Source: an uncultured Anaerolineaceae bacterium (GTDB taxonomy: Bacteria > Chloroflexota > Anaerolineae > Anaerolineales > E44-bin32). From it: a stretch of DNA of 39,533 nt. The notes beneath the pieces were generated by a model. That model ran no database searches, had not been told where the DNA came from, and was given only the letters and a program-made list of their open reading frames with translations. This document shows, piece after piece, positions 2,555 to 22,372 of this stretch. The number at the start of each line of letters is the position of its first letter. The stretch's first letter is position 1. A program made the position numbers and the translations under genes. Location of the stretch: NCBI GenBank assembly GCA_964569445.1, contig CAZMVJ010000003.1:1-39533 (forward strand), given 5' to 3'.

Positions 2555-2632
2555 GTCGCTTCTCCTTCGAGGCGTACGGAGGGGATCTCCTCATTCTATA
2601 TACACCGGAAGAGGCGGCCGACAAAGCGCCAA

Positions 2633-2641
2633 TGCTATAAT
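2633..2641 (+). promoter_or_regulatory. Candidate extended -10 element (TGCTATAAT) in the divergent intergenic region
   Basis: The sequence tgctataat at 2633-2641 matches TGnTATAAT. No convincing -35 is present. It would give a leader of about 100 nt before GTG 2751, and that leader contains the hairpin GCCCCGctcgtCGGGGC. Confidence 0.3.
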
Positions 2642-2750
2642 TCTTCGCTCCCAGGCCGCCGCGCCGCGGTCGGCCTCGCCCCGCACAGTCGCCCCGCTCG
2701 TCGGGGCTTCGGCATCAAGGATAGAAGCTAGACCCAGGAGGTCCGATTCC

Positions 2751-4073
<1,323 letters not shown>

Positions 4074-4183
4074 AACGGCGCGCCTGGATGGCCGGAGGCA
4101 CCTGGGCCGTTCCATCTCCGCTCAGCCTCCATTCCGCCTCGGCGCGTGGCGCCTCCATGATCGCCTGGCCGGCTCGCTAGACC

Positions 4184-5766: not shown

Positions 5767-7116
5767 TTGGCCCTGTCGAACGTGCGCTGCCCCAATTGCC
5801 AATCCCCGCTGTCGATCCGGGTCGAGCAGTTGATCGACGTCGAGCGCGATCCCGGCGCCAAGGCGCGCTTGCTGAGCGGCAGCCTCAATCGAGTGCGCTG
5901 CCCGTCCTGCGGCTGGGAAGGCCAACTGGCGACGCCGCTCGTCTACCACGACCCGGGCCACGAACTCCTGCTGACCTATATGCCGGTCGAGATCAACTTG
6001 TCCAAGGCGGAGCAGGAACGACTCATCGGCCAGTTGATCAATCAGGCGATCACCCAGCTCCCGGCCGAACGCCGCAAGGGCTATCTCTTCCAGCCTCAGG
6101 CGGCCCTGACCACCCAGGGATTAGTCGAACGCATTCTCGGGGCGGATGGGATCACTCACGAACAGTTGGAGGAGCAGCGCGCGCGGGTGCGGCTGCTGGA
6201 GGCTCTCCTGCGGACGCCGCCCGAGGGGCAGGCCGCCTTCGCCGCACAGCACGACGCCGAGCTCGACGAGACCTTCTTCCAGCTGGCGGCGGTGAGCCTG
6301 CAGGCGGCGCGCGACGAACGCGCGGCGCGGGCGTTGAGCGAACGCCTGGAAGCGGTGCTGCCGCACACGGCTTACGGCAAGCGGATCCTGGCCCGCGAAG
6401 TGGAAGTGCGATCGGCCGCCGAGAGCTTAAGCCAGCTTAAGGAGCCGTTGACGCGGGAGGCAGTTCTCGATCTGATCCTGCAGGCACCGAGCGAAGAGCG
6501 CCAGGTGACGCTCGCCAGTCTGGCGCGCCCGGCTCTCGACTATGCGTTTTTCCAGGCACTGAGCGAACGTATCGAGCGCGCCGAGGCGCCGGAGAAGGTC
6601 CGGTTGGCGGCCGTTCGGCAGCGGCTGCTGCAGGTCACCCAGGACATCGACGCTGCCCAGGAAGCGCGCGTCGCCGACGCCGGGGCGGTGCTCCAGGCGC
6701 TGCTGCAGGCCGAAGACCTCGATCAGGCGCTGGCGCGGGCCTTGCCCGGCGTGGATGACTTGTTCCTCAGCCTGCTGACCTCCAATCTGCAGGCGGCGCA
6801 GCAACGCGGCGACCAGAAGACGTTACAACGCTTGATGGAGATCGACCGCCGGCTGAGGGAGATCATCCACGAGAGCCTGCCTCCCGGGCTGCAGGTGGCG
6901 CAGCAAGTGCTCGACGAACCTGACGAAGCCGCCGCGCAGCGTCGCCTCGATGAGGCGGGCGAAGCGCTCGACGACGATCTTCTGAACACGCTGCTCTCGA
7001 TGGCGCAACGCCTCGAAAGTTCCGGCGACGACGAGGGGGCCGCTCGCGTACAGCGGCTCCATCGCTACGCCGTCGGAGTTTCGATGCGCCGGAAGATGGC
7101 AGGCGGCAAGGCCTAG
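5767..7116 (+). CDS. CpXC-type zinc-ribbon protein with a long helical Ala/Leu/Glu-rich C-terminal region
   Basis: TTG 5767 lies 7 nt after GAGGT (5755-5759). The N-terminus carries paired motifs VRCPNCQSPL and VRCPSCGWEG (CpXC pattern). The remainder is predicted helical with no recognisable enzyme motif. Confidence 0.7.
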   Translation: MALSNVRCPNCQSPLSIRVEQLIDVERDPGAKARLLSGSLNRVRCPSCGWEGQLATPLVYHDPGHELLLTYMPVEINLSKAEQERLIGQLINQAITQLPAERRKGYLFQPQAALTTQGLVERILGADGITHEQLEEQRARVRLLEALLRTPPEGQAAFAAQHDAELDETFFQLAAVSLQAARDERAARALSERLEAVLPHTAYGKRILAREVEVRSAAESLSQLKEPLTREAVLDLILQAPSEERQVTLASLARPALDYAFFQALSERIERAEAPEKVRLAAVRQRLLQVTQDIDAAQEARVADAGAVLQALLQAEDLDQALARALPGVDDLFLSLLTSNLQAAQQRGDQKTLQRLMEIDRRLREIIHESLPPGLQVAQQVLDEPDEAAAQRRLDEAGEALDDDLLNTLLSMAQRLESSGDDEGAARVQRLHRYAVGVSMRRKMAGGKA

Positions 7117-11825: not shown

Positions 11826-11953
11826 CATTTGTTCCCCGATCCTCCCCGCGACCGCACCCCTGAGGATAAATCCGACCCCGAAGGTGCCTTTTGTCCATTG
11901 CCCCCTTCACCCCCCGTTTGCTAGACTGCCTCGCAGGACGGGAGGTTCCCGCC

Positions 11954-12316
11954 ATGAGTGCCGGACGGATCATCGCCTATATCGCCGCCGCCATCCTGAT
12001 CTTCTTCGGTTTCCTGTTTGTCTACGGCGCCTTCAGCCCGCAGGGGTCCGCCGGCTGGATCCCGATCGGCCTGATCAGCCTGGGCGCCGGTTTCGTCCTG
12101 ATTTGGCTCGCCGGACGGCGCGCGGCCGCCGCCGGGAAGCAGGAGATCGTCCAGCGCATCGAGATCTCGGGAGATGTCAGCCTGGAGAAAATGACCTGCC
12201 GCAACTGCGGCGGGGCTCTCAGCCCGGAAAACGTCAAGGTCGTGGCCGGCGCCGCCGTCGTCACCTGCCCCTTCTGCGGAACCTCGTATCACCTCGAAGA
12301 AGAGCCCAAGTGGTAG
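11954..12316 (+). CDS. Small membrane protein (2 predicted TM) with a C-terminal CxxC...CxxC zinc ribbon
   Basis: ATG 11954 lies 8 nt after GGAGG (11941-11945). Hydrophobic segments IIAYIAAAILIFFGFLFVYGAF and WIPIGLISLGAGFVLIWLA. C-terminus CRNCGGAL...CPFCGTSYHLEEEPKW. Possible promoter TTGCCC (11898-11903) / TAGACT (11922-11927). Confidence 0.6.
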   Translation: MSAGRIIAYIAAAILIFFGFLFVYGAFSPQGSAGWIPIGLISLGAGFVLIWLAGRRAAAAGKQEIVQRIEISGDVSLEKMTCRNCGGALSPENVKVVAGAAVVTCPFCGTSYHLEEEPKW

Positions 12317-12396: not shown

Positions 12397-14052
12397 ATGC
12401 GAAAGGCACTCCTAGTCCTCGCGCTGGCGCTCCTGGCCATCGCCTTGATCGCCTCCCCGGCGTCCGCCCAATCGTATTCGTTTCAGGTCCCCGAACAGGC
12501 GGTCGACGTCTACCTGGAGGAGGACGGCTCGATGCGCCTGGTATACCGGATCGTGTTTGCCAACGATCCGGGCGCGCCGCCGATCGATTTCGTCGATGTC
12601 GGGCTGCCCACCGAGGATTACGACCTCGGGTCCGTGCTCGCCTGGGTCGACGGCCAGCCGATCTCGTCCATCGAGGCTTCGCCCTACGTGACCCCGGGGA
12701 TCGCCCTCGGGTTGGGCGGCGCGTCGATCCCGGGCGGCCGCACCGGCGAAGTCGTCGTCGAGATCCCGCGCGTCGACAATGTCCTTTACGCCGGTGACGA
12801 GGCGGGCTACGCCAGCGCCAAGTTCTCCCCGAGCTGGTTCGACAGCCAGTTCGTCCGCGGCTCGACGGACATGACCGTGACCTTCCATCTCCCACCGGGA
12901 GTCCAGCCGGACCAGCCCCGCTGGCACACCCCCACCGGCGGCTGGCCGGAATCGCCTCCGGCGGTCGGGCTGGACGAGCAGGGGCGCATTGTCTACTCCT
13001 GGCGTGACACCTCGGCCAACGCCTACACCCAGTTCATCTTCGGGGCGTCCTTCCCTTCGACGGTCGTTCCCGCGGAGACCCTGCAGACGCCGACCTCCGG
13101 ACTCTTCACCGGACTCTTCGCCGCCTTCTCGTCCTTGATCGCCGGTATCGCCGGATGCTTCTTCCCTCTCCTTCCGGTGCTGATCGTCGTGGGCCTGATC
13201 TTCTTCGCCCGCAGCCGCTCGCGTCTGGCCTACCTGCCGCCGAAGATCGCCGTCGAAGGCCACGGGATCAAGCGCGGCCTGACGGCCGTCGAATCCGCCG
13301 TCTTGCTGCAGACCGGCCTCGACAAAGTCCTGACGATGATTCTCTTCGGCGTTGTCCGCAAGGGCGGCGGCCGCGTGATCCAACAGGAGCCTCTTAAGAT
13401 CGAAGCCCTCCCGGCGCCGACGACCGAGCTGCGCGCCTACGAGACGGCCTTCATCAAGGCGGCGGTCGAGCCCGATTTACGTCTCCGCCAGCGGGCCTTC
13501 TCCGACCTGATGATCGACCTGGTCCGTTCGGTGCAGACCAAGATGAAAGGCTTCAGCACGGGCGAGACCCGCGACTATTACCGCTCGATCATGCGCAAGG
13601 CGTGGGCCGAGGTCGAGGCCGCCGGGACGCCCGAGGTTCGCTCGGAGCGCTACAGCGAAGGCCTCGAATGGTTGATGCTCGATGGCGACTTCGACGATCG
13701 AACGCGCCGGACGTTCACGTCCGGCCCGGTCTACGTGCCGGTGTGGTGGTCGAACTACAGTCCGGCTCGCCCGGCGACGCCCGTCGTCAGCGGAACCTCA
13801 GCCAGGGGATCGGGCGCGGTCTCGCTGCCGCACCTGCCGGGCGCCGACTTCGCCGCGTCGATGGCTCGCAGCGTGCAGAACAGCGCCGGCGCGCTCGTCG
13901 GCAACGTCGCCGCCTTCACCCAGGGCGTGGCCAAGACGACCAATCCGCCGCCGGTCACGCGTTCCTACGGCGGTTCGCGCAGCGGGGGCGGCTGCGCCTG
14001 TGCCTGCGCCTGCGCCGGATGCGCCTGCGCGTGTGCCGGAGGCGGAAGGTGA
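12397..14052 (+). CDS. Signal-peptide / TM-anchored envelope protein (tentatively DUF2207-like) with a C-terminal Gly-flanked (Cys-Ala) repeat tail
   Basis: ATG 12397 is in frame inside ORF 11581-14052 and follows GGGGGA. Signal peptide MRKALLVLALALLAIALIASPASA/QS. A hydrophobic stretch of about 37 residues (GLFTGLFAAFSSLIAGIAGCFFPLLPVLIVVGLIFFA) is followed by RSRSR. The C-terminus is GGSRSGGGCACACACAGCACACAGGGR. The DUF2207 resemblance is from memory only. Confidence 0.8.
   Translation: MRKALLVLALALLAIALIASPASAQSYSFQVPEQAVDVYLEEDGSMRLVYRIVFANDPGAPPIDFVDVGLPTEDYDLGSVLAWVDGQPISSIEASPYVTPGIALGLGGASIPGGRTGEVVVEIPRVDNVLYAGDEAGYASAKFSPSWFDSQFVRGSTDMTVTFHLPPGVQPDQPRWHTPTGGWPESPPAVGLDEQGRIVYSWRDTSANAYTQFIFGASFPSTVVPAETLQTPTSGLFTGLFAAFSSLIAGIAGCFFPLLPVLIVVGLIFFARSRSRLAYLPPKIAVEGHGIKRGLTAVESAVLLQTGLDKVLTMILFGVVRKGGGRVIQQEPLKIEALPAPTTELRAYETAFIKAAVEPDLRLRQRAFSDLMIDLVRSVQTKMKGFSTGETRDYYRSIMRKAWAEVEAAGTPEVRSERYSEGLEWLMLDGDFDDRTRRTFTSGPVYVPVWWSNYSPARPATPVVSGTSARGSGAVSLPHLPGADFAASMARSVQNSAGALVGNVAAFTQGVAKTTNPPPVTRSYGGSRSGGGCACACACAGCACACAGGGR
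13993..14037 (+). repeat. Imperfect TGYGCS hexanucleotide repeat encoding CACACACA-G-CACACA
   Basis: In frame with the CDS: TGC GCC TGT GCC TGC GCC TGC GCC GGA TGC GCC TGC GCG TGT GCC. Confidence 0.9.
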
Positions 14053-15428
14053 GCTGGTTGCCCGGGCGCACATCCGCCACCGCGCGCGATTCGCGCCAAG
14101 GGCGCTTGGAGGTCTTTCGCCGCGCCACGCCGCGCGGCTCGGCGACGATCCACCTGCGCCGCGCCGCCGATGGGCGAGCCGAGCTCTTCATCAACGCCAA
14201 CCAGGTCTACCGCCTCAATCCGACGGCGGCGCAGATGGCCAACTTGATCCTCTCGGAGATTCCCAGCGCGGAAGCCGTGCGCCGCTTGGCGCGCGTTTTC
14301 CGCGCCGACCGCCGCCGCCTGGCCCGCGACCTGGCCGCCTTTCGCGCCGATCTGGAAGGACTGCTCGACCCGGAATCGGTCTGCCCCGTGCACGACCTGA
14401 ATCTCGAGGTCATCGCACCGTTCTCCGAGATCCCCGACTCCCCCTACCGGATGGACCTGGCGCTGACGTATCGCTGCAACGACAATTGCGCGCACTGTTA
14501 CAACGCCCGACCGCGGACCTACCCCGAACTCCCCACCGAGGACTGGCGGACGATCCTCGACCGTCTGTGGGCCGTCGGCGTCCCCCACATCTGCTTTACC
14601 GGCGGCGAGGCGACGCTGCGCCACGACCTGCCTGAGCTCGTCGCCCACAGCCACGGCCTGGGTCACATCGTCGGGTTGCTCAGCAACGGGCGCCGCCTTT
14701 CCGACGCCGCCTTCGTGCGTACGCTGACCGCTGCAGGCCTCGACCACGTCCAGATCACGCTCGAATCGAGTCGGGAGGATGTCCACGATCGGATGGTGGG
14801 AGCTCGCGGGGCCTGGCGGCAGACGGTCGCGGGAATCCGGAACGCCCTGGAGGGCGGCCTGTTCGTCATGACCAACACGACGCTGCTCGCCGACAATGTC
14901 GGGCACATCGGCGAGACGATCGACTTCCTGGCCGAGGTGGGCGTACCCACGATCGGCTGCAACGCCTTGATCCACGCCGGGCACGGCGCCGAAGTCGGCT
15001 CCGGTCTGCCGGAGGGCTGGTTGGCGCCGGTGTTGCGAGACGTGCAGAGCCGAACCGAGGCTCATGGACAGCGGCTGATCTGGTATACGCCGACACAATA
15101 CTGCCACTTCGACCCCGTGGAGGCCGAGCTGGGCGTCAAAGGCTGCACGGCGGCGCGTTACAACATGTGCGTCGAACCAGATGGCGCCGTTTTGCCTTGC
15201 CAGTCCTACTATCAATCCGTCGGGAACATCCTGCGGGATCCGTGGGACTCGATCTGGAACCACGACCTTTCGATGTGGCTCCGGCAGCGGAAGTACATGT
15301 CTGACGACTGCCGCGCCTGCTCGCTCGTCGCCGAATGCGGGGGCGGCTGCCCCCTGAGCCCGCCGGCCGCTACTTACGGATCCGGCTGGATCCCGGTTGG
15401 GGATGTCTCCCTGGCCGGGCGAGGTTGA
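14049..15428 (+). CDS. Radical SAM / SPASM-domain enzyme with an N-terminal PqqD-like (RRE) domain
   Basis: GTG 14049 overlaps the upstream TGA 14050-14052 (GTGA). RRE-like segment ELFINANQVYRLNPTAAQMANLILSEIPSAEAVRRLARVF...FRADLEGLL. CxxxCxxC motif LTYRCNDNCAHCYN; GGE motif CFTGGEATL. SPASM cysteines GCTAARYNMCVEPDGAVLPC and CRACSLVAECGGGC (CX2CX5CX3C). Confidence 0.9.
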   Translation: MSWLPGRTSATARDSRQGRLEVFRRATPRGSATIHLRRAADGRAELFINANQVYRLNPTAAQMANLILSEIPSAEAVRRLARVFRADRRRLARDLAAFRADLEGLLDPESVCPVHDLNLEVIAPFSEIPDSPYRMDLALTYRCNDNCAHCYNARPRTYPELPTEDWRTILDRLWAVGVPHICFTGGEATLRHDLPELVAHSHGLGHIVGLLSNGRRLSDAAFVRTLTAAGLDHVQITLESSREDVHDRMVGARGAWRQTVAGIRNALEGGLFVMTNTTLLADNVGHIGETIDFLAEVGVPTIGCNALIHAGHGAEVGSGLPEGWLAPVLRDVQSRTEAHGQRLIWYTPTQYCHFDPVEAELGVKGCTAARYNMCVEPDGAVLPCQSYYQSVGNILRDPWDSIWNHDLSMWLRQRKYMSDDCRACSLVAECGGGCPLSPPAATYGSGWIPVGDVSLAGRG

Positions 15429-15433
15429 GCGCC

Positions 15434-16603
15434 ATGACCGACATTCTGCATCGCGTATTCCCGCCCGCGCCCGAACGGCCGATCGTCCCGCCCGGGACCT
15501 ATCACTGCATGCAGGTCGACCCGCCAGCCCAACCGCGCCGTCTGCACCTGCGGGTCGAGTCCGACGGCCGGGGTCTGCTGATCGTCAACGCTTCGACCGT
15601 GCTCCACCTGAACGAGAGCGCCACGGCTCACGCCTGGCACCTGGTCCAGGGCAACAGCGAGGCCGACGCGGCCGAGTGGATGGCGCGGCGCTTCCGCATC
15701 AGTCGCAGGCGGGCCTTGAAAGACGGTCGGCTCATCCGGGACCAGGTCGAGTCGCTCGCCGAAAGAGAGGACCTCGACCCGGTGATGGTCATGGGGCTGG
15801 GGCGGGCCGATCCGTACGGGGCGCGTGCGACGGCCCCCTATCGTCTTGACTTGGCCCTGACCTACCGTCTCGCCGATGGCGTGTCGGTGGACCCACAGGC
15901 GCGCCGGCGGGTCGATCATGAGCTCACGACCGAGGAATGGAGAGGCGTCTTGGACCAGGCCTGGTCCATCGGGATTCCGCACGTCATCTTCGTCGGCGGT
16001 GAACCCACGGTCCGCCCGGATCTGCTCGACCTGATCCGGCATGCCGAGCAGCTCGGTCAGGTGTCGGGCGTCGTTACCTCCGCCGAAGGCCTGCTTACGC
16101 CGCGGCGACTGGAGGGATTGGCCGCCGCCGGCGTCGATCATCTCCTGGCCGTCGTCGATCCGAAAAGCGCGTCATCGCTGGACGGGCTCCGGCAGGCTGT
16201 GGCTTCCGACGTCTTTTGCGCGGCTCACCTGACGATTGATCCGAAGGACGAAGCGATCATTATCGAGGATCTTCAGCGAGTTCGCGAGACGGGGGTGACG
16301 CACGTCTCCCTGAGCGCGCCGCCCGGGGCGGCAGGCGCCGCCGCGCTCGGAGTCGCTCAGCAGGCTCTGGCGGAGGCCGGACTGAGCCTGGTGTGGGATC
16401 TCCCCGTGCCCTTTGCCGGCCACAACCCGATTCGTCTCGAGGCCGGTGCCGGCCCTGAGGCCGGGGCCTGGCTCTACATCGAGCCGGACGGCGACGTGCT
16501 GCCGGCGATCGGCGCGGAGACGGTGCTGGGCAACGTTGCGCGCGATTCGATCGCCGACATGTGGCGCCATGCGGCGGAAGGCCTGGCCCTTCCCGCGAGC
16601 TGA
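15434..16603 (+). CDS. Degenerate radical-SAM/SPASM paralog retaining the RRE-like domain but lacking all Fe-S cluster cysteines
   Basis: ATG 15434 lies 5 nt after the upstream stop. PYRLDLALTYRLADGVSVDPQ aligns with PYRMDLALTYRCNDNCAHCYN of the neighbour. IFVGGEPTVRPDL aligns with CFTGGEATLRHDL. YIEPDGDVLPAIGAETVLGNV aligns with CVEPDGAVLPCQSYYQSVGNI. Only 2 Cys occur in 389 aa, and the protein ends before the CX2CX5CX3C block. Confidence 0.8.
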   Translation: MTDILHRVFPPAPERPIVPPGTYHCMQVDPPAQPRRLHLRVESDGRGLLIVNASTVLHLNESATAHAWHLVQGNSEADAAEWMARRFRISRRRALKDGRLIRDQVESLAEREDLDPVMVMGLGRADPYGARATAPYRLDLALTYRLADGVSVDPQARRRVDHELTTEEWRGVLDQAWSIGIPHVIFVGGEPTVRPDLLDLIRHAEQLGQVSGVVTSAEGLLTPRRLEGLAAAGVDHLLAVVDPKSASSLDGLRQAVASDVFCAAHLTIDPKDEAIIIEDLQRVRETGVTHVSLSAPPGAAGAAALGVAQQALAEAGLSLVWDLPVPFAGHNPIRLEAGAGPEAGAWLYIEPDGDVLPAIGAETVLGNVARDSIADMWRHAAEGLALPAS

Positions 16604-16627: not shown

Positions 16628-17392
16628 ATGGCCCGCCCTGATCCCATCGATCGGCGACACCTGCGTTTCACCGAACAGGCCGCCTGGACGGCGGCACTTC
16701 GCGCGCAGCTGCTAAGCCGGATTCCCGACGAGGCCGCCGCCCTCCTGCTGGAGGTCGGCGCCGGGACGGGTGCCGTCGCCGGCGATCTCGCCGCTCAGCG
16801 TCCGGCGGCGCGGGTGATGGCGCTCGACATCGATCTGGCGGCCTGCCGTTACGGGGCGGAGCATGCTGCCCGTGCGGCCTGGCAATGCGGCGACGCCCAC
16901 GCGCTGCCCTTCCGGTCGTCGTCCCTCGACGCCACCCTCTTCCACTTCGTGCTGCTGTGGCTGGACGATCCGGCCCAGGCGTTGGCCGAGGCCGTGCGCG
17001 TCACGCGCCCCGGCGGCTGGGTTGCGGCGTTGGCCGAGCCCGATCATGCCGCCCGGCTCGACTTCCCCGATGTCCTGGCGCGCCTGGGCGAGCGCCAGAC
17101 AGAGGCGCTGGCCATGGAAGGCGCCGACGTCCGGATGGGCCGGAAGCTGCGCGCCCTCTTGGCTGCGGTCGAGCTTGAGGATGTGGAATGCGGCGTGCTC
17201 GGCGGGCAGTGGCACTCCGGCGCGGGGGCCGGCGAATCTTCGCTCGAGTGGGAGACGCTGCGCCGCGACCTGGACCTGACCGTTCCGGCGGCGGACCTCG
17301 ACGCGCTCGAGGCCTTCGATCGCGGGTCCTGGGAGCGCGGTGAACGCGTGCTCTTCGTTCCGACTTTCTACGCCATAGGGCGCGTAACCTGA
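16628..17392 (+). CDS. Class I SAM-dependent methyltransferase
   Basis: Motif I LLEVGAGTGAVAGDL, followed by acidic ALDID and post-II/III motifs (LDATLFHFVLLWLDDP, VTRPGGWV). Confidence 0.85.
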   Translation: MARPDPIDRRHLRFTEQAAWTAALRAQLLSRIPDEAAALLLEVGAGTGAVAGDLAAQRPAARVMALDIDLAACRYGAEHAARAAWQCGDAHALPFRSSSLDATLFHFVLLWLDDPAQALAEAVRVTRPGGWVAALAEPDHAARLDFPDVLARLGERQTEALAMEGADVRMGRKLRALLAAVELEDVECGVLGGQWHSGAGAGESSLEWETLRRDLDLTVPAADLDALEAFDRGSWERGERVLFVPTFYAIGRVT

Positions 17393-17801: not shown

Positions 17802-18518
17802 TCAGCTGGGCGCCAATGCTGGTAATCCATCCCGGGCTGCGGGTTTCCGCCGGGTTACCCACAACAACAACGCCGCCTCCACTAGCGTCAGGGCCATCAG
17901 CAGCGCGAACACGTCGCGCCAGAATCGCATCGGAAAAAGGCGAATGAGGGTGTCCGAAGTGTAGAAGACCCAGGTGCCGCTTTGGAAGAAGACCTGATGG
18001 AACCCGGTGAAGAGGACGGAGAAGGACAACAGGAGCAATCCGACCAGGGCCACCATCAGGAACAATGTAATGCGCGCGCCCAGGTTGAATCCGCGCCGGA
18101 CCGTCCCGCTGGAGGCGAATCGCCAGGCGGCAAGGCCCACACCGGCCAGCAAGACAACCAGGGCCGCCCAAATCCTTACGGCGCCTTGGACCAAGATCTT
18201 GACGTCCACCATGTGGCTCAGCTCGCGCGGATTGTAGAGAGCGATGCCGTTGGGGTCGCGCACATCGGCCAGGAATTCCGGGCCGGCATCGTTGAACAAG
18301 TAGGCTCGGGCGATCTCGGCCAGGCGGACGCGTTCCTCCCGGGTGAAGCCGTAGGGGTCGTCGGGGAACCCGGGCGTCGAATACTCGACCGAGACGAAGA
18401 GCGGGGTCAGGAGCAAGCGGACGTTGGTCAGAATCAACACGACAGGCACCAGGATGCCGATGGCGACGCGAGCCGTCGAAGACAGTCGTCGCTGCGTCGG
18501 AAGAGCCTCCCGGCTCAT
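17802..18518 (-). CDS. Integral membrane protein, TIGR01906/DUF1461-like (family assignment tentative)
   Basis: ATG 18518 overlaps the upstream stop (ATGA at 18515-18518). There are four or more hydrophobic segments and an extracytoplasmic loop with PGFPDDPYGFTREERVRLAEIARAYLF...RELSHMVDVKILVQG. Confidence 0.7.
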   Translation of the reverse strand: MSREALPTQRRLSSTARVAIGILVPVVLILTNVRLLLTPLFVSVEYSTPGFPDDPYGFTREERVRLAEIARAYLFNDAGPEFLADVRDPNGIALYNPRELSHMVDVKILVQGAVRIWAALVVLLAGVGLAAWRFASSGTVRRGFNLGARITLFLMVALVGLLLLSFSVLFTGFHQVFFQSGTWVFYTSDTLIRLFPMRFWRDVFALLMALTLVEAALLLWVTRRKPAARDGLPALAPS

Positions 18519-20101
18519 TGGAGCAGCCCCATGTCGCCTGTCAGGAGGAACTGAAGGGCGACGGCGTTGGTCAGCTGTTCGATCGGCGCCCAATCGTCTG
18601 TAAAGACGACCGTCGACATCGGTGTCGGCTGCAGATTGCCCAGTGTTCGCACCAGAACATCCTCCAGGAGCGGGTCGGCCCCTTCCCTCGCCAGGCGGTC
18701 GAGGTTGGCGACCAGGTTGCCCGGCTCGGTCGGCAGCATTGTGGCGTAGACAATTGTGTTGAAGCTCGCCGGGACGTCGACGACGTGGACCGACGGGAAG
18801 ACGGCCCCGAGCGTGCCGGCCATCCCGTCGACCAGGCGGCGGTCCTCCGGTGTCCGCCCGACGTTGATCACGACGACTCCGTCCGGCAGCAGATGCCCCC
18901 GGACCTCCTCGAAGAATTCACGCGTTGTAAGCTGCCAGGGGATGTACGGCAGGCGATAGGCGTCGATCGCCACCACGCTGTACAGCTCCGGGCTGTGGGC
19001 CAGCCCCCACCGGCCGTCGGCGGTAATGACATTGAGATTCGGTTCGTCCATGGCGAAGTAAGCGCGCCCCACCTCGGTGATCCCCGGGTCGATCTCCCAG
19101 CCGTCGATGGGCAGCGGCCCGAAGACCTGGGTGTACTGTTTGGCGATCGTCCCCGCCGCCAGACCGACGATCCCCAGCCGCTCGACTTCTTCGCCCGGCA
19201 CAGGCGACACGTTCCAATAGGGCGCCGCCAGGAAGTAGTCCCACGTCCCGTTGGTCGCCGGCTGGTCGGGGTCGTAGACGGAGTGAATCCCCTGCCCCTC
19301 GTTCAGCAACAAGTAACGGACGCCGTCGCGCTCGACCACCTGGATGTAGTTGTAGGCGGACTCGTCCTCGAAGATCTGTCCGGCGGTGGCTTTGATCGGC
19401 TGGCTCAGGCTCAGCCAGGACCAGGCCACCAGGACGATCGGCATCCACAGGTAGCGCAGCATCCTCTTGCGATCGATTTGCCACAGACCCACGAACGCCA
19501 CCGCCATCAAAGTCATGCTGAACACGAGAAAGGTGCGCGCCGTGCCCACGGCGGGGATCAGCCAAAGCACCGGCACGAACGTCCCGAGGATGGCTCCCAG
19601 GGTCGAGATGGCGTACATCCGGCCGGAGACCCGACCGGCGTGCTGCGGATCCTGGATCGCCAGGCGGATGGCGAAAGGCGAGACGCAGCCGAGCAGGATG
19701 ACCGGAAGGCTGAAGAGGATCAACACCGACAGGAACGACCCGACCATGATCGCCGCATCGAGTCGTTCGACGGCGCCGACGGCCGCCAGCAGCACCGGCC
19801 GCGCTACCGGCGGGATGACGCCGCCCAGGAAGGCCGCCCACGCCAGCAGCGTGTAAAACGTCCGTAGATAGGGAGATCGATCCGCCCAGCGACCGCCGAT
19901 GAAATAACCGACCGTCAGGTAGAGGAGGATGAGCCCGATGATGTTGGCCCACACCAGATTGCTAGTTCCGAAGACATTGCCCAAGAGTCGGGAAGCCGAG
20001 ATCTCGAGGGCCAACGTAACCATGCCGGCGATGAAGACGGCCAGGGTCAGCAGGCGGTTGGTCGGGCGATCCAAAGAGACACGGACATCAGGCTGCGTCA
20101 C
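18515..20101 (-). CDS. Fused polytopic membrane domain + spermidine-synthase-like (class I MTase fold) protein
   Basis: The N-terminal 220 aa or so hold multiple TM segments. The C-terminal part has SAYNYIQVVERDGVRYLLLNEGQGIHS, LGIVGLAAGTIAKQY, VVAIDAYRLPYIPWQLTTREFFEEVRGHLLPDGVVVINV. The start overlaps the DUF58 gene by 14 nt. Confidence 0.8.
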   Translation of the reverse strand: MTQPDVRVSLDRPTNRLLTLAVFIAGMVTLALEISASRLLGNVFGTSNLVWANIIGLILLYLTVGYFIGGRWADRSPYLRTFYTLLAWAAFLGGVIPPVARPVLLAAVGAVERLDAAIMVGSFLSVLILFSLPVILLGCVSPFAIRLAIQDPQHAGRVSGRMYAISTLGAILGTFVPVLWLIPAVGTARTFLVFSMTLMAVAFVGLWQIDRKRMLRYLWMPIVLVAWSWLSLSQPIKATAGQIFEDESAYNYIQVVERDGVRYLLLNEGQGIHSVYDPDQPATNGTWDYFLAAPYWNVSPVPGEEVERLGIVGLAAGTIAKQYTQVFGPLPIDGWEIDPGITEVGRAYFAMDEPNLNVITADGRWGLAHSPELYSVVAIDAYRLPYIPWQLTTREFFEEVRGHLLPDGVVVINVGRTPEDRRLVDGMAGTLGAVFPSVHVVDVPASFNTIVYATMLPTEPGNLVANLDRLAREGADPLLEDVLVRTLGNLQPTPMSTVVFTDDWAPIEQLTNAVALQFLLTGDMGLLQ

Positions 20102-21422
20102 GACGCAAATCTCCGGCTGGCTGGCTGAGGGACCGCTCCAGCGGCTGCCCGCGACGGATCACGCGCACGGGGATGCCCGCATCCGACAAGGCCAGCGCCA
20201 GGGGGCGTGCGGACATGCGTGAGCCGAAATCGGATGGTTCGACGAACGACGCCACGGGGACCAGCCCGCGTCGGCGGAGCTCGAGCATCTCGTGGTAGAG
20301 GTCCTCGCGCACGTTCGGAGTGAGCACGGCGATCGTCGCTCCCCTGGGGAACCAGGTTGTCTCGATCCGGAAGACGTCCGTCAGGTCGACATCCCCGTCG
20401 GCGCGAAAGCCGGCCAGGGCCTCCAGCAGGCGAAACAACTGTGCTTCGCCGCGCTCGGGCTGGACGACCATGCGCGAGGTTCCGTAACCGAGCAGGCCGG
20501 TGGCCCGGTTGCGTCCAAGAACGTGCAGCGCCACCGAGGCCGCCGCCGCGATCATGTACTCCTCTGTCTGAGGCGGCAATCTCAGCTGCCGGCCCGGCCC
20601 TTTCCCAGCCAGCGATTCTTCACCAGCCGGCTCGCCGAAATGCATCCGGCGCTGACCGTCGAGCACGATCCAGACGTCGGACATCGGATCGAGTTCGAAT
20701 TCCTTGGAGATCAGGCGCCCTCGCCGCGCCGTCGACTTCCAGTGGATGCGGCTGAGACTGTCGCCGTGAGCATACTCGCGCACGCCCGAGGCGTTCGGGG
20801 TGACCTGGTAGGTCCGCCTCCGCAGCGCCTCGCCTCCGCTCAACCGGCCGGCCGGAATCGGGAAGCTGGGCAATGGAACCGTCGGGGGAAGGACGACGAC
20901 CTCGCGGACGCCTCCGACGCTGCGGTGGGAAGGGAACAGGCCGAACGGGTCGCCGGCGATCAATGTCGTCGGGCCGAGGCGGAACCGGCCGCGGCGGGTG
21001 CAGATCGTGCGCGCCGTCCACAGCCAGGCTTGACGGGCGCCCAGCCCGGCCGCCACCGCCGAAGCCCGGTGCCCGCTGAAGTCGTGAGTCCCGCCCTCCG
21101 TCGAAAGCCCGATGGCGCGCGCGGCGGCCCACGATCCCGGCAGGTCCGACTCGTCGCGGACCTCCACCCACAGTTTGGGGAGCCGGCTGTCGTTCTTGAG
21201 TGAGAGAGTCTCCTCGAAGACCCGGCCGACCTGACTCGTCAGACTGCGGGAGGTGCGCTCGAGGCGTAGTCCCCGCAAGGCCGCCCACGACCAGGCCCAG
21301 GCCACGATCAGCACGCCGGCGAACAGCACCGACAGGCTGCCGAAGACGGACCGGCCGGTGAGGGTCAGGCCGGCCAGACTGACGAGCAGCAGACCCAGGA
21401 CGACCAGGGCCCGCTGGGTCAT
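20088..21422 (-). CDS. DUF58-domain protein (MoxR partner), N-terminal 2 TM
   Basis: Motif [34 protein letters not shown] overlap with the moxR stop at 21419-21422. Confidence 0.85.
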
Positions 21423-22372
21423 CGTCCTCCGGCCGTTCCGGGAACCGGCGTCGCCCCCAGGATCTCCTGGACGATCATGCGCGCGTCGACGTCGCGGATG
21501 CGGGCTCCCGAGCCGATGATCATACGATGGGCCAGCGCCGGCACAGCGACGGCCTTGATGTCGTCCGGCAGGACGTAGTCGCGCTCCGCCAGCGCGGCGT
21601 GCGCCTGGGCGGCACGGAAAAGGGCCAGGCTCCCACGTGGGCTGGCCCCCAGGTAGACCTCGTGGTGCTTGCGGGTGGCCGTGACCAGATCGAGGATGTA
21701 ACGCTTGAGCTCGTCGACCACGCGGACTTCGCGAACCTTGCGCTGCGCTTCCATCACCTCGTCGACCAGGGCCACGGCCTGCAGCGTCTCGAGGGGATGC
21801 TGGATCTGCTGCCCCTCCAGCATCCGAATTTCATCGGCCAGCAGCGGGTATCCCAGGCTGATGCGCAGCAAGAAGCGGTCGAGCTGCGCCTCGGGCAGAG
21901 GGAACGTCCCTTCGTATTCGATCGGGTTCTGAGTGGCCAGCACCAGAAAGGGCGTCGGCATCGGGTAGGTGACGCCGTCGACGGTCACCTGCCGTTCTTC
22001 CATCACTTCGAGCAGCGCCGCCTGCGTCTTGGGCGTCGCCCGGTTGATCTCGTCGATCAGCACGATCTGCGCCAGCACCGGCCCGGGCCGGTATTCGAAG
22101 GTGTGGGTCTGCTGGTTGAAGATCGAGACCCCGGTCACGTCGCTCGGCAGCATGTCCGGCGTGAACTGGATGCGATTGAACGAACCGCCGATCGAACGGG
22201 CCAGGCTCTTAGCCAGCACCGTCTTCCCGGTGCCGGGCACGTCCTCGATCAGAATGTGGCCCTGGGCCAGGAGGCCCAGCAACGTCAGACGGATCGCCTC
22301 CGGCTTGCCGACGATGACCCGCTCGATATTCTCGGCGATGCGCTTCCCCAGCTGGGAAACGGACTCGATCAA
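21419..22372 (-). CDS. MoxR-family AAA+ ATPase
   Basis: [44 protein letters not shown], Walker [24 protein letters not shown], and a C-terminal AAA lid. Confidence 0.95.

What the first reader, a model, noticed from the sequence alone, without database searches (positions are those of the whole stretch)
13975..14052. C-terminal (Cys-Ala)4-Gly-(Cys-Ala)3 tail encoded by a hexanucleotide repeat and coupled by a GTGA overlap to the radical SAM gene
Seen directly: codons TGC GCC TGT GCC TGC GCC TGC GCC GGA TGC GCC TGC GCG TGT GCC (13993-14037) are flanked by Gly runs and followed by a final Arg. TGA 14050-14052 overlaps GTG 14049-14051 of the rSAM/SPASM enzyme.

The tail holds seven cysteines strictly alternating with alanine.

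The synonymous variation (TGC/TGT, GCC/GCG) argues that the peptide, not merely a DNA microsatellite, is maintained. The 6-nt periodicity could still allow in-frame expansion or contraction.

The RSRSR cluster after the hydrophobic segment suggests the C-terminal region is cytoplasmic. That would make it reachable by a cytoplasmic rSAM enzyme.

Possible chemistries are Cys-S to C-alpha thioethers, Cys to dehydroalanine or formylglycine, or a metal / Fe-S binding tail. I recall Gly/Cys-rich tails on some membrane-protein families (for example TIGR04222-domain proteins), but that is memory only.
Basis: partly seen in the sequence, partly recalled or inferred. Interest (0 to 1): 0.8.

Follow-up and report, generated by a model that had tools for sequence, protein, structure and literature searches.

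The report
Conserved Cys-Ala tail with radical-SAM partner
A membrane protein found in many bacteria and archaea always ends in the same short alternating cysteine-alanine tail and nearly always sits beside a dedicated radical-SAM enzyme, which points to an undescribed protein-modification system whose chemistry is still unknown.

Summary
Gene 12397-14052 encodes a 551-aa protein ending GGG-(CA)4-G-(CA)3-GGGR, and its TGA overlaps the GTG of an RRE/radical-SAM/SPASM gene.

- **Not a drifting microsatellite.** Forty genomes encode the identical 19-aa tail with 40 different DNA sequences. Protein bodies diverge to 25-50% identity, yet every complete member ends (CA)n[G](CA)mGGGR.
- **Wide distribution.** The family spans Chloroflexota, Planctomycetota, Myxococcota, Acidobacteriota, Methanomassiliicoccales, Heimdall/Hodarchaeota and others. 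It has no Pfam, NCBIfam, PDB or literature match.
- **Linkage to the enzyme.** About 66 of 75 tail-seeded loci carry the rSAM orthologue. All 61 testable rSAM-seeded loci carry a CA tail upstream.
- **Conserved cassette.** It has four or five genes: a 2-TM zinc-ribbon protein, the CA-tail protein, the rSAM/SPASM, a Cys-less rSAM paralogue and a class I methyltransferase.
- **Topology.** A signal peptide, an odd number of TM segments and net +3 charge after the TM place the tail in the cytoplasm.

Best reading: the tail is a protein-borne, RiPP-like core modified by the adjacent maturase. A Cys-to-Ala/Gly thioether is the likeliest chemistry, but this is inferred and untested. A metallothionein-like metal-binding tail is the main rival. 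I rate it a new variant of a known kind, with high interest.

The parts
11891..12316 (+). Small membrane protein (141 aa) with two TM helices and a C-terminal CxxC...CxxC zinc ribbon, ending in an invariant E-x-PKW. A conserved cassette member.
   Evidence: An orthologue lies directly upstream of the CA-tail gene in most loci. It forms ORF cluster 2, present in 59 of 75 loci. The alignment shows four conserved Cys and the PKW terminus. Pfam gives only weak zinc-ribbon hits.
12397..14052 (+). CA-tail membrane protein, 551 aa. Order of parts: signal peptide, beta-sandwich ectodomain, TM segment, cytoplasmic helical domain, Gly/Ser linker, (CA)4-G-(CA)3-GGGR.
   Evidence: Translation. More than 3000 homologues at 90% clustering and 867 representatives at 50% clustering. 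No Pfam, NCBIfam or PDB sequence match. AF2 model has mean pLDDT 83.9.
12397..12471 (+). Sec-type signal peptide, MRKALLVLALALLAIALIASPASA|Q.
   Evidence: A hydrophobic N-terminus followed by an AxA-Q motif is conserved in the family consensus. Helix 2-19 in the AF2 model.
12481..13056 (+). Extracytoplasmic beta-sandwich domain (residues 29-220).
   Evidence: AF2 pLDDT is above 95. The best Foldseek PDB matches are ribophorin I/Ost1 (8b6l_O, E 2.3e-8; 6s7o_E; 6ezn_A) and the N-terminal domains of M1 aminopeptidases.
13093..13218 (+). Hydrophobic membrane segment (residues 233-274), followed by RSRSR.
   Evidence: Hydropathy scan. Most homologues have a single 26-31-aa segment followed by RRRK. 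The Planctomycetota-type members have three segments.
13228..13941 (+). Cytoplasmic domain (residues 278-515). It carries the conserved motifs YLPPKI-EGHGIKRGLTAVEAA, KMKGFS, TPEV-S, LEW-MLD and LP-LPGADFAAS...FT-GV-KTTNPPP. The last two helices (482-515) are a candidate recognition ('leader-like') region.
   Evidence: Invariant columns. AF2 models. No PDB fold match (best Foldseek E 3.8). The leader-like role is inference only.
13993..14049 (+). The tail CACACACA-G-CACACA-GGGR: seven Cys alternating with Ala, then the terminal GGGR.
   Evidence: Invariant in all 119 complete proteins among the 120 closest homologues (the one exception, P0026, ends inside the conserved TNPPP motif) and present in 118 of 150 unbiased representatives, the rest mostly fragments or frameshifts. 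Forty identical peptides come from 40 different DNA sequences. AF2 predicts it disordered, pLDDT below 50.
14049..15428 (+). RRE (PqqD-like) + radical SAM + SPASM enzyme, 459 aa. Its GTG start overlaps the TGA of the tail gene.
   Evidence: Pfam PqqD, Radical_SAM and SPASM all pass their cut-offs. All NCBIfam hits are far below cut-off; the best is PqqE at 128 bits against 381. Closest solved structures are SkfB (6efn, 1.5e-22) and PqqE (6c8v, 1.9e-17). Invariant residues include C143/C147/C150, plus C366, C384, C421, C424, C430 and C434.
15434..16603 (+). Cys-less paralogue of the rSAM/SPASM enzyme ('pseudo-rSAM'), 389 aa. It keeps the N-terminal RRE-like region and part of the barrel.
   Evidence: Radical_SAM 39 bits; SPASM 20.2 bits, which is below its cut-off. 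All 37 orthologues lack CxxxCxxC and have a median of 2 Cys. A second triad-less paralogue is also present in the Planctomycetota/Myxococcota-type loci.
16628..17392 (+). Class I SAM-dependent methyltransferase, 254 aa. A conserved cassette member.
   Evidence: Methyltransf_11 at 73.5 bits. Orthologues occur in 51 of 75 loci, including Heimdall/Hodarchaeota and Methanomassiliicoccales.

Best explanation
The (Cys-Ala)n-GGGR tail is a protein-borne, RiPP-like core peptide. It sits at the cytoplasmic C-terminus of a single-pass (in some clades three-pass) membrane protein and is modified after translation by the co-encoded RRE-radical SAM-SPASM enzyme.

**Proposed mechanism (inferred, not shown)**
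1. The PqqD-like RRE of the enzyme, and/or of its Cys-less paralogue, docks on the conserved helical/TNPPP region just upstream of the Gly/Ser linker.
2. The flexible linker delivers the tail to the active site.
3. A tail thiolate binds an auxiliary SPASM cluster.
4. The 5'-deoxyadenosyl radical abstracts a hydrogen from a neighbouring Ala or Gly carbon.
5. Intramolecular Cys-S-to-carbon thioether links form, as in sactipeptide or ranthipeptide chemistry.
6. The class I methyltransferase may then cap remaining thiols or the carboxylate.

**Shown here:** the tail is under intense purifying selection at the peptide level. It forms a conserved 4-5-gene cassette with the enzyme across Bacteria and Archaea. 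The predicted topology puts it in the same compartment as the enzyme.

**Inferred:** that the tail is the substrate, which region is recognised, and the type of chemistry.
For: 1. **Peptide-level selection.** The tail is identical in all 119 complete proteins among the 120 closest homologues at 50-94% identity. Forty identical tails are encoded by 40 different DNA sequences, using both Cys codons and all four Ala codons. Members at only 24-32% identity, from archaea and other phyla, still end (CA)nG(CA)mGGGR or (CA)5-7GGGR. 118 of 150 unbiased 50%-cluster representatives carry it, and most of the rest are fragments or frameshifts.
2. **Reciprocal linkage.** An rSAM orthologue (40-63% identity) lies next to or near the tail gene in about 66 of 75 tail-seeded loci from more than 10 phyla. 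All 61 rSAM-seeded metagenome loci with more than 400 nt of upstream sequence carry a CA tail upstream.
3. **Gene order.** The order is permuted between clades: ZnR-CAtail-rSAM-pseudo-MT against ZnR-rSAM-pseudo-CAtail-MT. The set of genes is nevertheless kept. All-against-all ORF clustering finds only these families conserved around the tail gene.
4. **Enzyme type.** It has a PqqD/RRE domain, the hallmark of peptide-modifying rSAM enzymes, together with a complete CxxxCxxC and the SPASM motifs CX12GX4C and CX2CX5CX3C. The closest solved relatives are the thioether-forming SkfB and the peptide cross-linking PqqE.
5. **Gene spacing.** The genes overlap by 4 nt in the window. The gap is at most 120 nt in 52 of 60 loci.
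6. **Topology and flexibility.** The signal peptide, one or three TM segments and +3 net charge after the TM place the tail in the cytoplasm with the enzyme. The tail and its linker are predicted to be disordered, so accessible.
Against: - No experiment or structural model links the enzyme to the tail, so co-occurrence is the only tie.
- Six loci keep the tail with no SPASM rSAM within the DNA held (up to 8 kb per side) (L037, L038, L054, L058, L069, L074). Either the enzyme is unlinked in those genomes or the tail can function without it.
- The enzyme scores far below every curated NCBIfam cut-off, so no specific chemistry can be transferred.
- CxC spacing is typical of metal-thiolate binders and is not seen in known sactipeptide or ranthipeptide cores (my knowledge).
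- Known RRE-dependent substrates are short peptides, not the end of a 550-aa membrane protein.
- The rSAM-seeded reciprocal test covered only close relatives (at least 54% identity), mostly Chloroflexota.
Confidence: 0.5

Rival explanations
1. The tail is a membrane-anchored, metallothionein-like metal-thiolate site binding Zn, Cu(I), Cd or an Fe-S cluster, and it works unmodified. The rSAM cassette is then linked for another reason. It might use the tail as a cluster, sulfur or electron donor, or it might act on a different substrate in the same pathway.
For: - Seven or eight Cys in C-x-C spacing with small neighbours (Ala, Gly, Ser, Val) is the metallothionein pattern (my knowledge).
- The variants keep the Cys and tolerate A-to-V/S/H changes (CVCACHACACACACVSCACACAGGGAR).
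- The tail is disordered in the apo-model.
- Six loci retain the tail without a nearby SPASM rSAM.
- The cytoplasmic location keeps the thiols reduced.
Against: - A simple metal-binding tail would not need near-absolute invariance of the Ala positions, the Gly break and the terminal GGGR over such distances.
- It would also not need a dedicated RRE-containing rSAM, a paralogue and a methyltransferase kept together in both domains of life.
- Metallothioneins vary widely in sequence (my knowledge).
Confidence: 0.25
2. The tail is a scaffold or carrier on which the rSAM, its paralogue and the methyltransferase assemble or hold a cofactor or metallocluster. This would resemble NifB or HydG building a cluster, or a Gly-Gly-ended sulfur carrier. 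The tail itself would not be cross-linked.
For: - The cassette pairs a catalytically dead paralogue with a membrane zinc-ribbon protein, which suggests a multi-protein assembly machine.
- The enzyme's nearest NCBIfam neighbours include cofactor-making SPASM enzymes: PqqE, NirJ, AhbC/D and MftC.
- The wide, housekeeping-like distribution in anaerobes fits a cofactor better than an antibiotic.
Against: - No small-molecule biosynthetic genes are conserved in the neighbourhood.
- The RRE points to a peptide substrate.
- There is no precedent for such a carrier (my knowledge).
Confidence: 0.12
3. The tail is a low-complexity by-product of a GC-rich hexanucleotide microsatellite, or a lipidation (S-acylation) anchor. 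Under this reading it has no functional tie to the rSAM gene.
For: - TRF detects a period-6 array.
- Repeat number differs among clades.
- Cys-rich juxtamembrane tails are S-acylated in eukaryotes (my knowledge).
Against: - Forty different DNA sequences encode one peptide, and the third codon positions are saturated.
- The tail occurs in low-GC archaea as well as in this 67% GC genome.
- All 61 rSAM-seeded loci carry it.
- The tail lies about 270 residues from the membrane segment.
- Bacterial cytoplasmic S-acylation machinery is not known (my knowledge).
Confidence: 0.03

Closest known systems
Sactipeptide/ranthipeptide maturases with RRE and SPASM domains (SkfB, AlbA, CteB/SCIFF, PapB)
   Same: - The domain order is the same: PqqD-like RRE, radical SAM, SPASM.
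- SkfB is the closest solved structure.
- The substrate is Cys-rich and encoded next to the enzyme.
- The chemistry proposed here, Cys thiolate on an auxiliary cluster followed by a C-S bond, is theirs.
   Different: - Scores are far below the curated cut-offs: SkfB 94.8 against 300, AlbA 68.8 against 850, StsB 85 against 625.
- The substrate is the cytoplasmic end of a 551-aa membrane protein, not a short exported precursor.
- No protease or exporter is conserved in the cassette.
- The core is a strict C-A alternation.
- The system occurs in both Bacteria and Archaea with housekeeping-like conservation.
PqqE/PqqD and MftC/MftB (peptide-derived cofactor biosynthesis)
   Same: - PqqE is the best NCBIfam hit (128 bits) and the second-best PDB hit.
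- Both use RRE-guided modification of a C-terminal core.
- The product is used inside the cell rather than secreted.
   Different: - The score is 128 bits against a cut-off of 381 for PqqE, and 91 against 265 for MftC.
- There is no Glu/Tyr or Val-Tyr core.
- No other pqq or mft genes are present.
- The core stays attached to a large protein, as far as can be told.
QhpD/QhpC and anaerobic sulfatase-maturing enzymes (rSAM/SPASM enzymes that modify Cys in proteins)
   Same: Both are SPASM radical SAM enzymes that act on cysteine residues of a folded or large protein partner. QhpD forms several Cys thioethers within one polypeptide (my knowledge).
   Different: - The anSME motif C/S-x-P/A-x-R is absent from the tail.
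- QhpC is a small periplasmic subunit with Cys-Asp/Glu links.
- No amine dehydrogenase or sulfatase genes are present.
- Neither family was among the 25 best NCBIfam matches listed (61 matched in all).
His-Xaa-Ser (HxsA/B/C) and other short-repeat RiPP systems
   Same: - The core is a short sequence motif repeated in tandem.
- It is served by a pair of related rSAM proteins.
- HxsC and HxsC4 are weak NCBIfam hits (70-76 bits).
   Different: - The repeat unit is different (Cys-Ala).
- Here the second paralogue has lost its Cys triad.
- The substrate is fused to a membrane protein.
- All scores are below cut-off.
Metallothioneins and Cys-rich metal-binding tails
   Same: The C-x-C spacing with small intervening residues is shared, and the sequence is predicted disordered without a ligand.
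   Different: - The tail is invariant over vast evolutionary distances.
- It is always at the extreme C-terminus and always ends GGGR.
- It is tethered to a membrane protein.
- It is genetically tied to an rSAM cassette.
DUF2207 / TIGR04222-type membrane proteins with Gly-rich or Gly/Cys-rich C-terminal tails; ribophorin I/Ost1
   Same: - The overall plan is similar: signal peptide, beta-sandwich ectodomain, TM segment, cytoplasmic domain, low-complexity Gly-rich C-terminus.
- The ectodomain's best fold matches are ribophorin I/Ost1.
- One Heimdall member gives a faint DUF2207_C hit (E 0.069).
   Different: - No significant match to DUF2207, TIGR04222 or Ribophorin_I models was found.
- Those families are not known to carry a (CA)n tail or an rSAM partner (my knowledge, not tested).

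Membership tests
RRE-dependent radical SAM/SPASM peptide maturases (general class) | CxxxCxxC radical SAM cluster motif | tested here: met
   C143-N-D-N-C147-A-H-C150 is invariant in 19 diverse orthologues. 63 orthologues in the loci carry the motif. Pfam Radical_SAM scores 88.5 bits.
RRE-dependent radical SAM/SPASM peptide maturases (general class) | SPASM auxiliary-cluster cysteines (CX9-15GX4C ... CX2CX5CX3C) | tested here: met
   C366-x12-G379-x4-C384 and C421-x2-C424-x5-C430-x3-C434 are invariant. Pfam SPASM scores 36.3 bits. The final downstream Cys is missing in the window's clade but present in other clades.
RRE-dependent radical SAM/SPASM peptide maturases (general class) | N-terminal PqqD-like RiPP recognition element | tested here: met
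   Pfam PqqD scores 25.7 bits against a cut-off of 23.4, at residues 50-103. The HLR...LN-TA motif is conserved.
RRE-dependent radical SAM/SPASM peptide maturases (general class) | A co-encoded substrate with a conserved core | tested here: met
   The tail is present in all 61 testable rSAM-seeded loci and the enzyme in about 66 of 75 tail-seeded loci. The substrate relationship itself is inferred.
RRE-dependent radical SAM/SPASM peptide maturases (general class) | Demonstrated covalent modification of the core | not testable with these tools
   This needs mass spectrometry of a native or co-expressed tail.
PqqE (TIGR02109) | Score above the curated equivalog cut-off, with the pqqA-D gene context | tested here: not met
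   The score is 128.2 bits against a cut-off of 381. No pqq genes are conserved in the neighbourhood.
Sactipeptide maturases (SkfB TIGR04403, AlbA NF012164, StsB NF045574) | Score above the curated cut-off, with a short leader-core precursor | tested here: not met
   Scores are 94.8 against 300, 68.8 against 850 and 85.1 against 625. The putative substrate is a 551-aa membrane protein.
   The 551-aa protein has no NCBIfam hit at E of 0.01 or better.
DUF2207 (PF09972 / PF20990) | Match to the Pfam models | tested here: not met
   No hit for the window protein. One Heimdall member scores E 0.069, 13.3 bits against a cut-off of 33, for DUF2207_C. A remote relationship is neither shown nor excluded.
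Ribophorin I / Ost1 | Two luminal beta-sandwich domains, a TM segment and membership of an oligosaccharyltransferase complex, with a Pfam Ribophorin_I match | tested here: inconclusive
   Foldseek gives E 2.3e-8 to 1.3e-6, but TM-scores are only 0.25-0.33 and sequence identity 12-14%. There is no Pfam hit, and no STT3/AglB gene appeared among the conserved neighbour families.
Anaerobic sulfatase-maturing enzyme substrates | C/S-x-P/A-x-R motif in the target | tested here: not met
   The tail CACACACAGCACACAGGGR has no C-x-[PA]-x-R.
Metallothionein-like metal-binding sequences | Clustered C-x-C / C-x-x-C motifs that bind metal-thiolate clusters | tested here: inconclusive
   The C-x-C pattern is present by inspection. 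Metal binding cannot be tested with these tools.

The most novel reading that the evidence does not exclude
A previously unrecognised post-translational system is shared by Bacteria and Archaea, including Asgard lineages. A ribophorin-I-like single-pass membrane protein carries an invariant cytoplasmic (Cys-Ala)n-GGGR tail. A dedicated radical SAM/SPASM enzyme, its catalytically dead paralogue and a methyltransferase convert that tail into a new protein-borne structure. This could be a poly-thioether ladder or a modified thiolate site that holds a metal or redox centre at the membrane.
Probability: 0.4. Interest if true: 0.85.

Novelty: new variant of a known kind. Interest (0 to 1): 0.74.

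Why it matters
- **A new kind of substrate.** If the tail is the enzyme's substrate, RRE-guided radical SAM chemistry extends from small secreted peptides to the cytoplasmic end of a large, widely conserved membrane protein. A 19-residue sequence frozen from Chloroflexota to Heimdallarchaeota implies a demanding structural or chemical role.
- **A family to annotate.** It would define a protein family of thousands of sequences that currently has no Pfam or NCBIfam model. It would also define a 4-5-gene cassette that can be annotated in many uncultured anaerobes.
- **A tractable experiment.** Co-expression followed by mass spectrometry is feasible. That would address what Cys-x-Cys repeats become under SPASM enzymes, and what Cys-less rSAM paralogues do.
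- **A possible evolutionary link.** The ribophorin-I-like ectodomain in Asgard members adds a possible connection to explore.

Tried and rejected
1. **Family and structure searches on the CA-tail protein.** Pfam and NCBIfam found nothing for the window protein or for seven distant members. A PDB sequence search with the family profile found nothing.
2. **Fold search on the cytoplasmic domain alone.** A separate AF2 model gave no match (best E 3.8).
3. **Literature.** Five full-text searches for the motif, for Cys-Ala repeats with radical SAM, and for RRE/SPASM with membrane-fused precursors returned only primer sequences and unrelated papers.
4. **Tail on other protein architectures.**
   - A 44-aa concatenate of two tail variants found only 16 short proteins, all C-terminal fragments of the same family.
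   - There is therefore no evidence that the tail is a portable tag, but this search was weak.
5. **Tail-less relatives as a natural control.**
   - P0267 is a frameshifted call; the tail is in another frame in L158.
   - P0252 sits on a 1.8-kb contig.
   - P0266 has an acidic tail and a truncated context.
   - P0268/L159 lacks both the tail and an rSAM within 4.8 kb.
   - The control is too thin to be decisive.
6. **Microsatellite drift.** Rejected on codon evidence.
7. **Two-TM hairpin, which would put the tail outside.** AF2 breaks the window's 41-aa hydrophobic stretch at FPLLP. Homologues nevertheless have one 26-31-aa segment or three segments, always an odd number, and positive charge follows the last one.
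8. **Multimer modelling of the tail against the RRE.** This was not possible with the tools on hand.
Full report
**1. The observation**

Gene 12397-14052 on the + strand encodes a 551-aa protein that ends ...YGGSRSGGG-CACACACA-G-CACACA-GGGR. The stop TGA at 14050-14052 overlaps GTG at 14049-14051. That GTG opens a 459-aa ORF with PqqD, Radical_SAM and SPASM domains, all above their Pfam cut-offs.

A GGAGG at 14038-14042, formed by the Gly codons of the tail, lies 6 nt before that GTG. Close orthologues of the enzyme align from residue 1, so the start assignment is sound.

The degenerate pattern (TGY GCN)3 occurs nowhere else in the window and in none of 100 shuffles. TRF sees an imperfect period-6 array.

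**2. A conserved peptide, not a repeat that happens to be translated**

The 120 closest database homologues are 46-97% identical and come from Anaerolineales and other Chloroflexota. All end in CACACA(CA)GCACACAGGGR except one, P0026, which ends inside the conserved TNPPP motif and so stops short of the tail region.

A scan of one genome per species, seeded on the tail pattern, recovered 75 loci. Besides Chloroflexota they come from:
- Acidobacteriota, Aminicenantes, Planctomycetota, Myxococcota, Hydrogenedentes and Sabulitectum;
- the archaeal groups Methanomassiliicoccales, Thermoplasmatota, Nanoarchaeia and Heimdall/Hodarchaeota.

Protein identity in these loci falls to 24-32%. The tail variants are (CA)3-5-G-(CA)3, (CA)2-3-G-(CA)4 and, in archaea, (CA)5-7. 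They always sit at the extreme C-terminus and almost always end GGGR.

Forty loci encode the identical 19-residue tail with 40 different DNA sequences. Codon counts are TGC 302 and TGT 213 for Cys, and GCC 290, GCG 89, GCT 88 and GCA 48 for Ala. Synonymous sites are therefore saturated while the peptide is frozen.

That scan was biased toward the tail, so I also ran an unbiased phmmer search of 1.84 billion cluster representatives. It gave 867 hits. Of the best 150, 118 carry the tail. The other 32 are nearly all truncated or frameshifted gene calls. One apparent tail-less member, P0267, has the tail in another reading frame of its contig.

**3. What the protein looks like**

The AF2 model has mean pLDDT 83.9. 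In order, it shows:
- a signal peptide;
- a very confident beta-sandwich at residues 29-220;
- a hydrophobic segment at 233-274;
- a cytoplasmic winged-helix-like plus helical domain up to about residue 455;
- a disordered stretch;
- two conserved helices at 482-515 that end in the TNPPP motif;
- a disordered Gly/Ser linker and then the tail.

The ectodomain's best PDB fold matches are ribophorin I/Ost1 and the N-terminal domains of M1 aminopeptidases. The cytoplasmic domain has no fold match.

No Pfam, NCBIfam or PDB sequence family matches the window protein or seven distant members. The recalled TIGR04222 link is not supported.

On topology, homologues have one hydrophobic segment before the conserved YLPP motif, or three in the Planctomycetota type. 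Net charge is +3 after it and -1 before it. With the signal peptide, this predicts the N-terminus outside and the C-terminus inside.

**4. The neighbourhood is a conserved cassette**

I searched the window's proteins against the 75 tail-seeded loci with tblastn. An rSAM orthologue at 40-63% identity is present in about 66 of them. The small 2-TM zinc-ribbon protein (11891-12316) is present in most. The methyltransferase (16628-17392) is present in many, including archaeal loci.

All-against-all clustering of every ORF in these loci finds only four conserved families:
- the CA-tail protein;
- the rSAM together with its paralogue;
- the zinc-ribbon protein (59 loci);
- the methyltransferase (51 loci).

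Gene order differs between clades. Chloroflexota have ZnR-CAtail-rSAM-paralogue-MT. Planctomycetota and Myxococcota have ZnR-rSAM-paralogue-CAtail-MT. Methanomassiliicoccales have ZnR-CAtail-rSAM with the MT on the opposite strand. A gene set that is kept while its order is shuffled argues for a functional link.

The paralogue (15434-16603) has lost the CxxxCxxC triad in all 37 orthologues, which have a median of two Cys in total.

For the reciprocal test I seeded a metagenome scan with an alignment of the enzyme. It returned 80 loci at 54-93% identity. Sixty-one of them have more than 400 nt upstream of the enzyme gene, and all 61 carry a CA tail there. In L131 the tail sits at the contig edge, followed by an inserted gene.

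The distance from the tail's stop codon to the enzyme's start has a median of about 51 nt. The genes overlap or abut in 14 of 60 loci, as in the window. Eight loci have an insert of 0.6-1.7 kb.

**5. Exceptions**

Six tail-seeded loci show no SPASM rSAM in the DNA held (up to 8 kb on each side): L037, L038, L054, L058, L069 and L074. L037, L038 and L074 keep the zinc-ribbon gene. The rest of those genomes could not be searched, so it is unknown whether the enzyme is merely unlinked there.

**6. The enzyme**

The invariant residues are the radical SAM triad (C143, C147, C150), the SPASM motifs C366-x12-G-x4-C384 and C421-x2-C-x5-C-x3-C434, and an HLR...LN-TA motif in the RRE.

Every NCBIfam hit is far below its curated cut-off. 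The highest are PqqE (128 against 381), NirJ2, AhbC/D, GeoRSP, SkfB, MftC and ScmE. The closest solved structures are SkfB and PqqE. The enzyme is therefore an uncurated subfamily of the peptide-modifying SPASM group. No specific chemistry can be transferred by homology.

**7. Interpretation**

The simplest account of points 2-6 is that the tail is the substrate ('core') of the adjacent maturase and stays attached to its membrane protein. I think thioether formation between tail cysteines and Ala or Gly carbons is the most likely chemistry, for two reasons:
- RRE-SPASM enzymes acting on Cys-rich cores typically form thioethers (SkfB, AlbA, CteB, PapB, QhpD; my knowledge of these families).
- In a hairpin centred on the single Gly, every cross-strand pair would be Cys opposite Ala. 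This is my own geometric inference and is not tested.

The main rival is a metallothionein-like metal-thiolate tail that is not covalently modified. A third option is a scaffold for cofactor assembly. Only experiments can separate these.

**8. Novelty**

Five full-text searches found nothing on this motif or system. No curated family covers the protein. A weak search for the tail on other protein architectures found only fragments of the same family.

I rate it a new variant of a known kind. It is RRE-guided radical SAM/SPASM maturation, but of a tail fused to a large, pan-prokaryotic membrane protein, with a dead paralogue and a membrane zinc-ribbon partner.

**9. Context**

The window is 67% GC, and its closest relatives are Anaerolineales MAGs. 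The flanking genes are LigA, an aminotransferase-class enzyme, an rRNA-type methyltransferase, a Lit-like protein and a MoxR/DUF58 pair. They look like housekeeping genes and are not conserved with the cassette outside close relatives.

Noticed in passing
window 15434-16603: A paralogue of the neighbouring rSAM/SPASM enzyme has lost the CxxxCxxC triad and nearly all cysteines. All 37 orthologues lack the motif, with a median of 2 Cys. A separate triad-less paralogue sits next to the active enzyme in Planctomycetota/Myxococcota-type loci, so an active/dead rSAM pair appears to be a conserved feature.
   Followed up: partly
window 11891-12316: A small protein with two TM helices and a cytoplasmic CxxC...CxxC zinc ribbon ends in an invariant E-x-P-K-W. 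It is conserved directly upstream of the CA-tail gene or of the rSAM in 59 of 75 loci, including archaeal ones. Its role is unknown; it could be an electron donor, an adaptor or a partner of the tail.
   Followed up: partly
window 12481-13056 (residues 29-220 of the CA-tail protein): The ectodomain's best PDB fold matches are ribophorin I/Ost1 of the eukaryotic oligosaccharyltransferase, followed by M1 aminopeptidase N-domains. The family occurs in Heimdall/Hodarchaeota, and 766-838-aa variants (P0027, P0121-P0124) have two such domains, as ribophorin I does. TM-scores are low (about 0.26), so this is only a lead.
   Followed up: partly
window 14038-14042: A GGAGG formed by the Gly codons of the terminal GGGR lies 6 nt upstream of the GTG start of the rSAM gene. 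In this lineage the tail codons therefore double as a likely ribosome-binding site. The same is not true in many other loci.
   Followed up: no
window 15340-15428 (C-terminus of the rSAM); alignment A3: The window's Chloroflexota clade lacks the last C-terminal cysteine that follows CGGGCPL by about 17 residues in the other clades. One auxiliary cluster may therefore have only three Cys ligands, as reported for PqqE.
   Followed up: no
L046 6025-7806 and 7878-9806; L147 about 700-2364 and about 2400-4102: Two tandem paralogues of the CA-tail protein lie in one locus, each with its own complete tail. In L046 one copy has one TM segment and the other has three.
   Followed up: no
L038 1584-5047 (- strand) and L074 3235-5046 (- strand): In the lineage that keeps the tail and the zinc-ribbon gene but has no SPASM rSAM within 8 kb, the upstream ORFs begin MRILLVYPN...YPHGLG. 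That resembles B12-binding radical SAM enzymes. This was not checked with Pfam and could be coincidental.
   Followed up: no
window 13228-14049 (residues 278-551): The cytoplasmic domain is modelled with moderate to high confidence, with pLDDT 80-94 over residues 20-170 of the fragment. It has no detectable fold relative in the PDB (best Foldseek E 3.8).
   Followed up: yes
window 17802-22372 (- strand) and 5767-7116 (+ strand): The neighbouring genes are unrelated to the cassette: a Lit-like (lipoprotein intramolecular transacylase) membrane protein, a 528-aa multi-TM protein with no Pfam hit, a DUF58 protein with a MoxR AAA_3 ATPase, and a 449-aa protein with an N-terminal CpXC domain.
   Followed up: partly
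L131 1-640: A roughly 600-nt ORF is inserted between the end of the CA-tail gene and the rSAM gene. Eight of 60 loci have inserts of 0.6-1.7 kb at this junction. The contents of the inserts were not identified.
   Followed up: no
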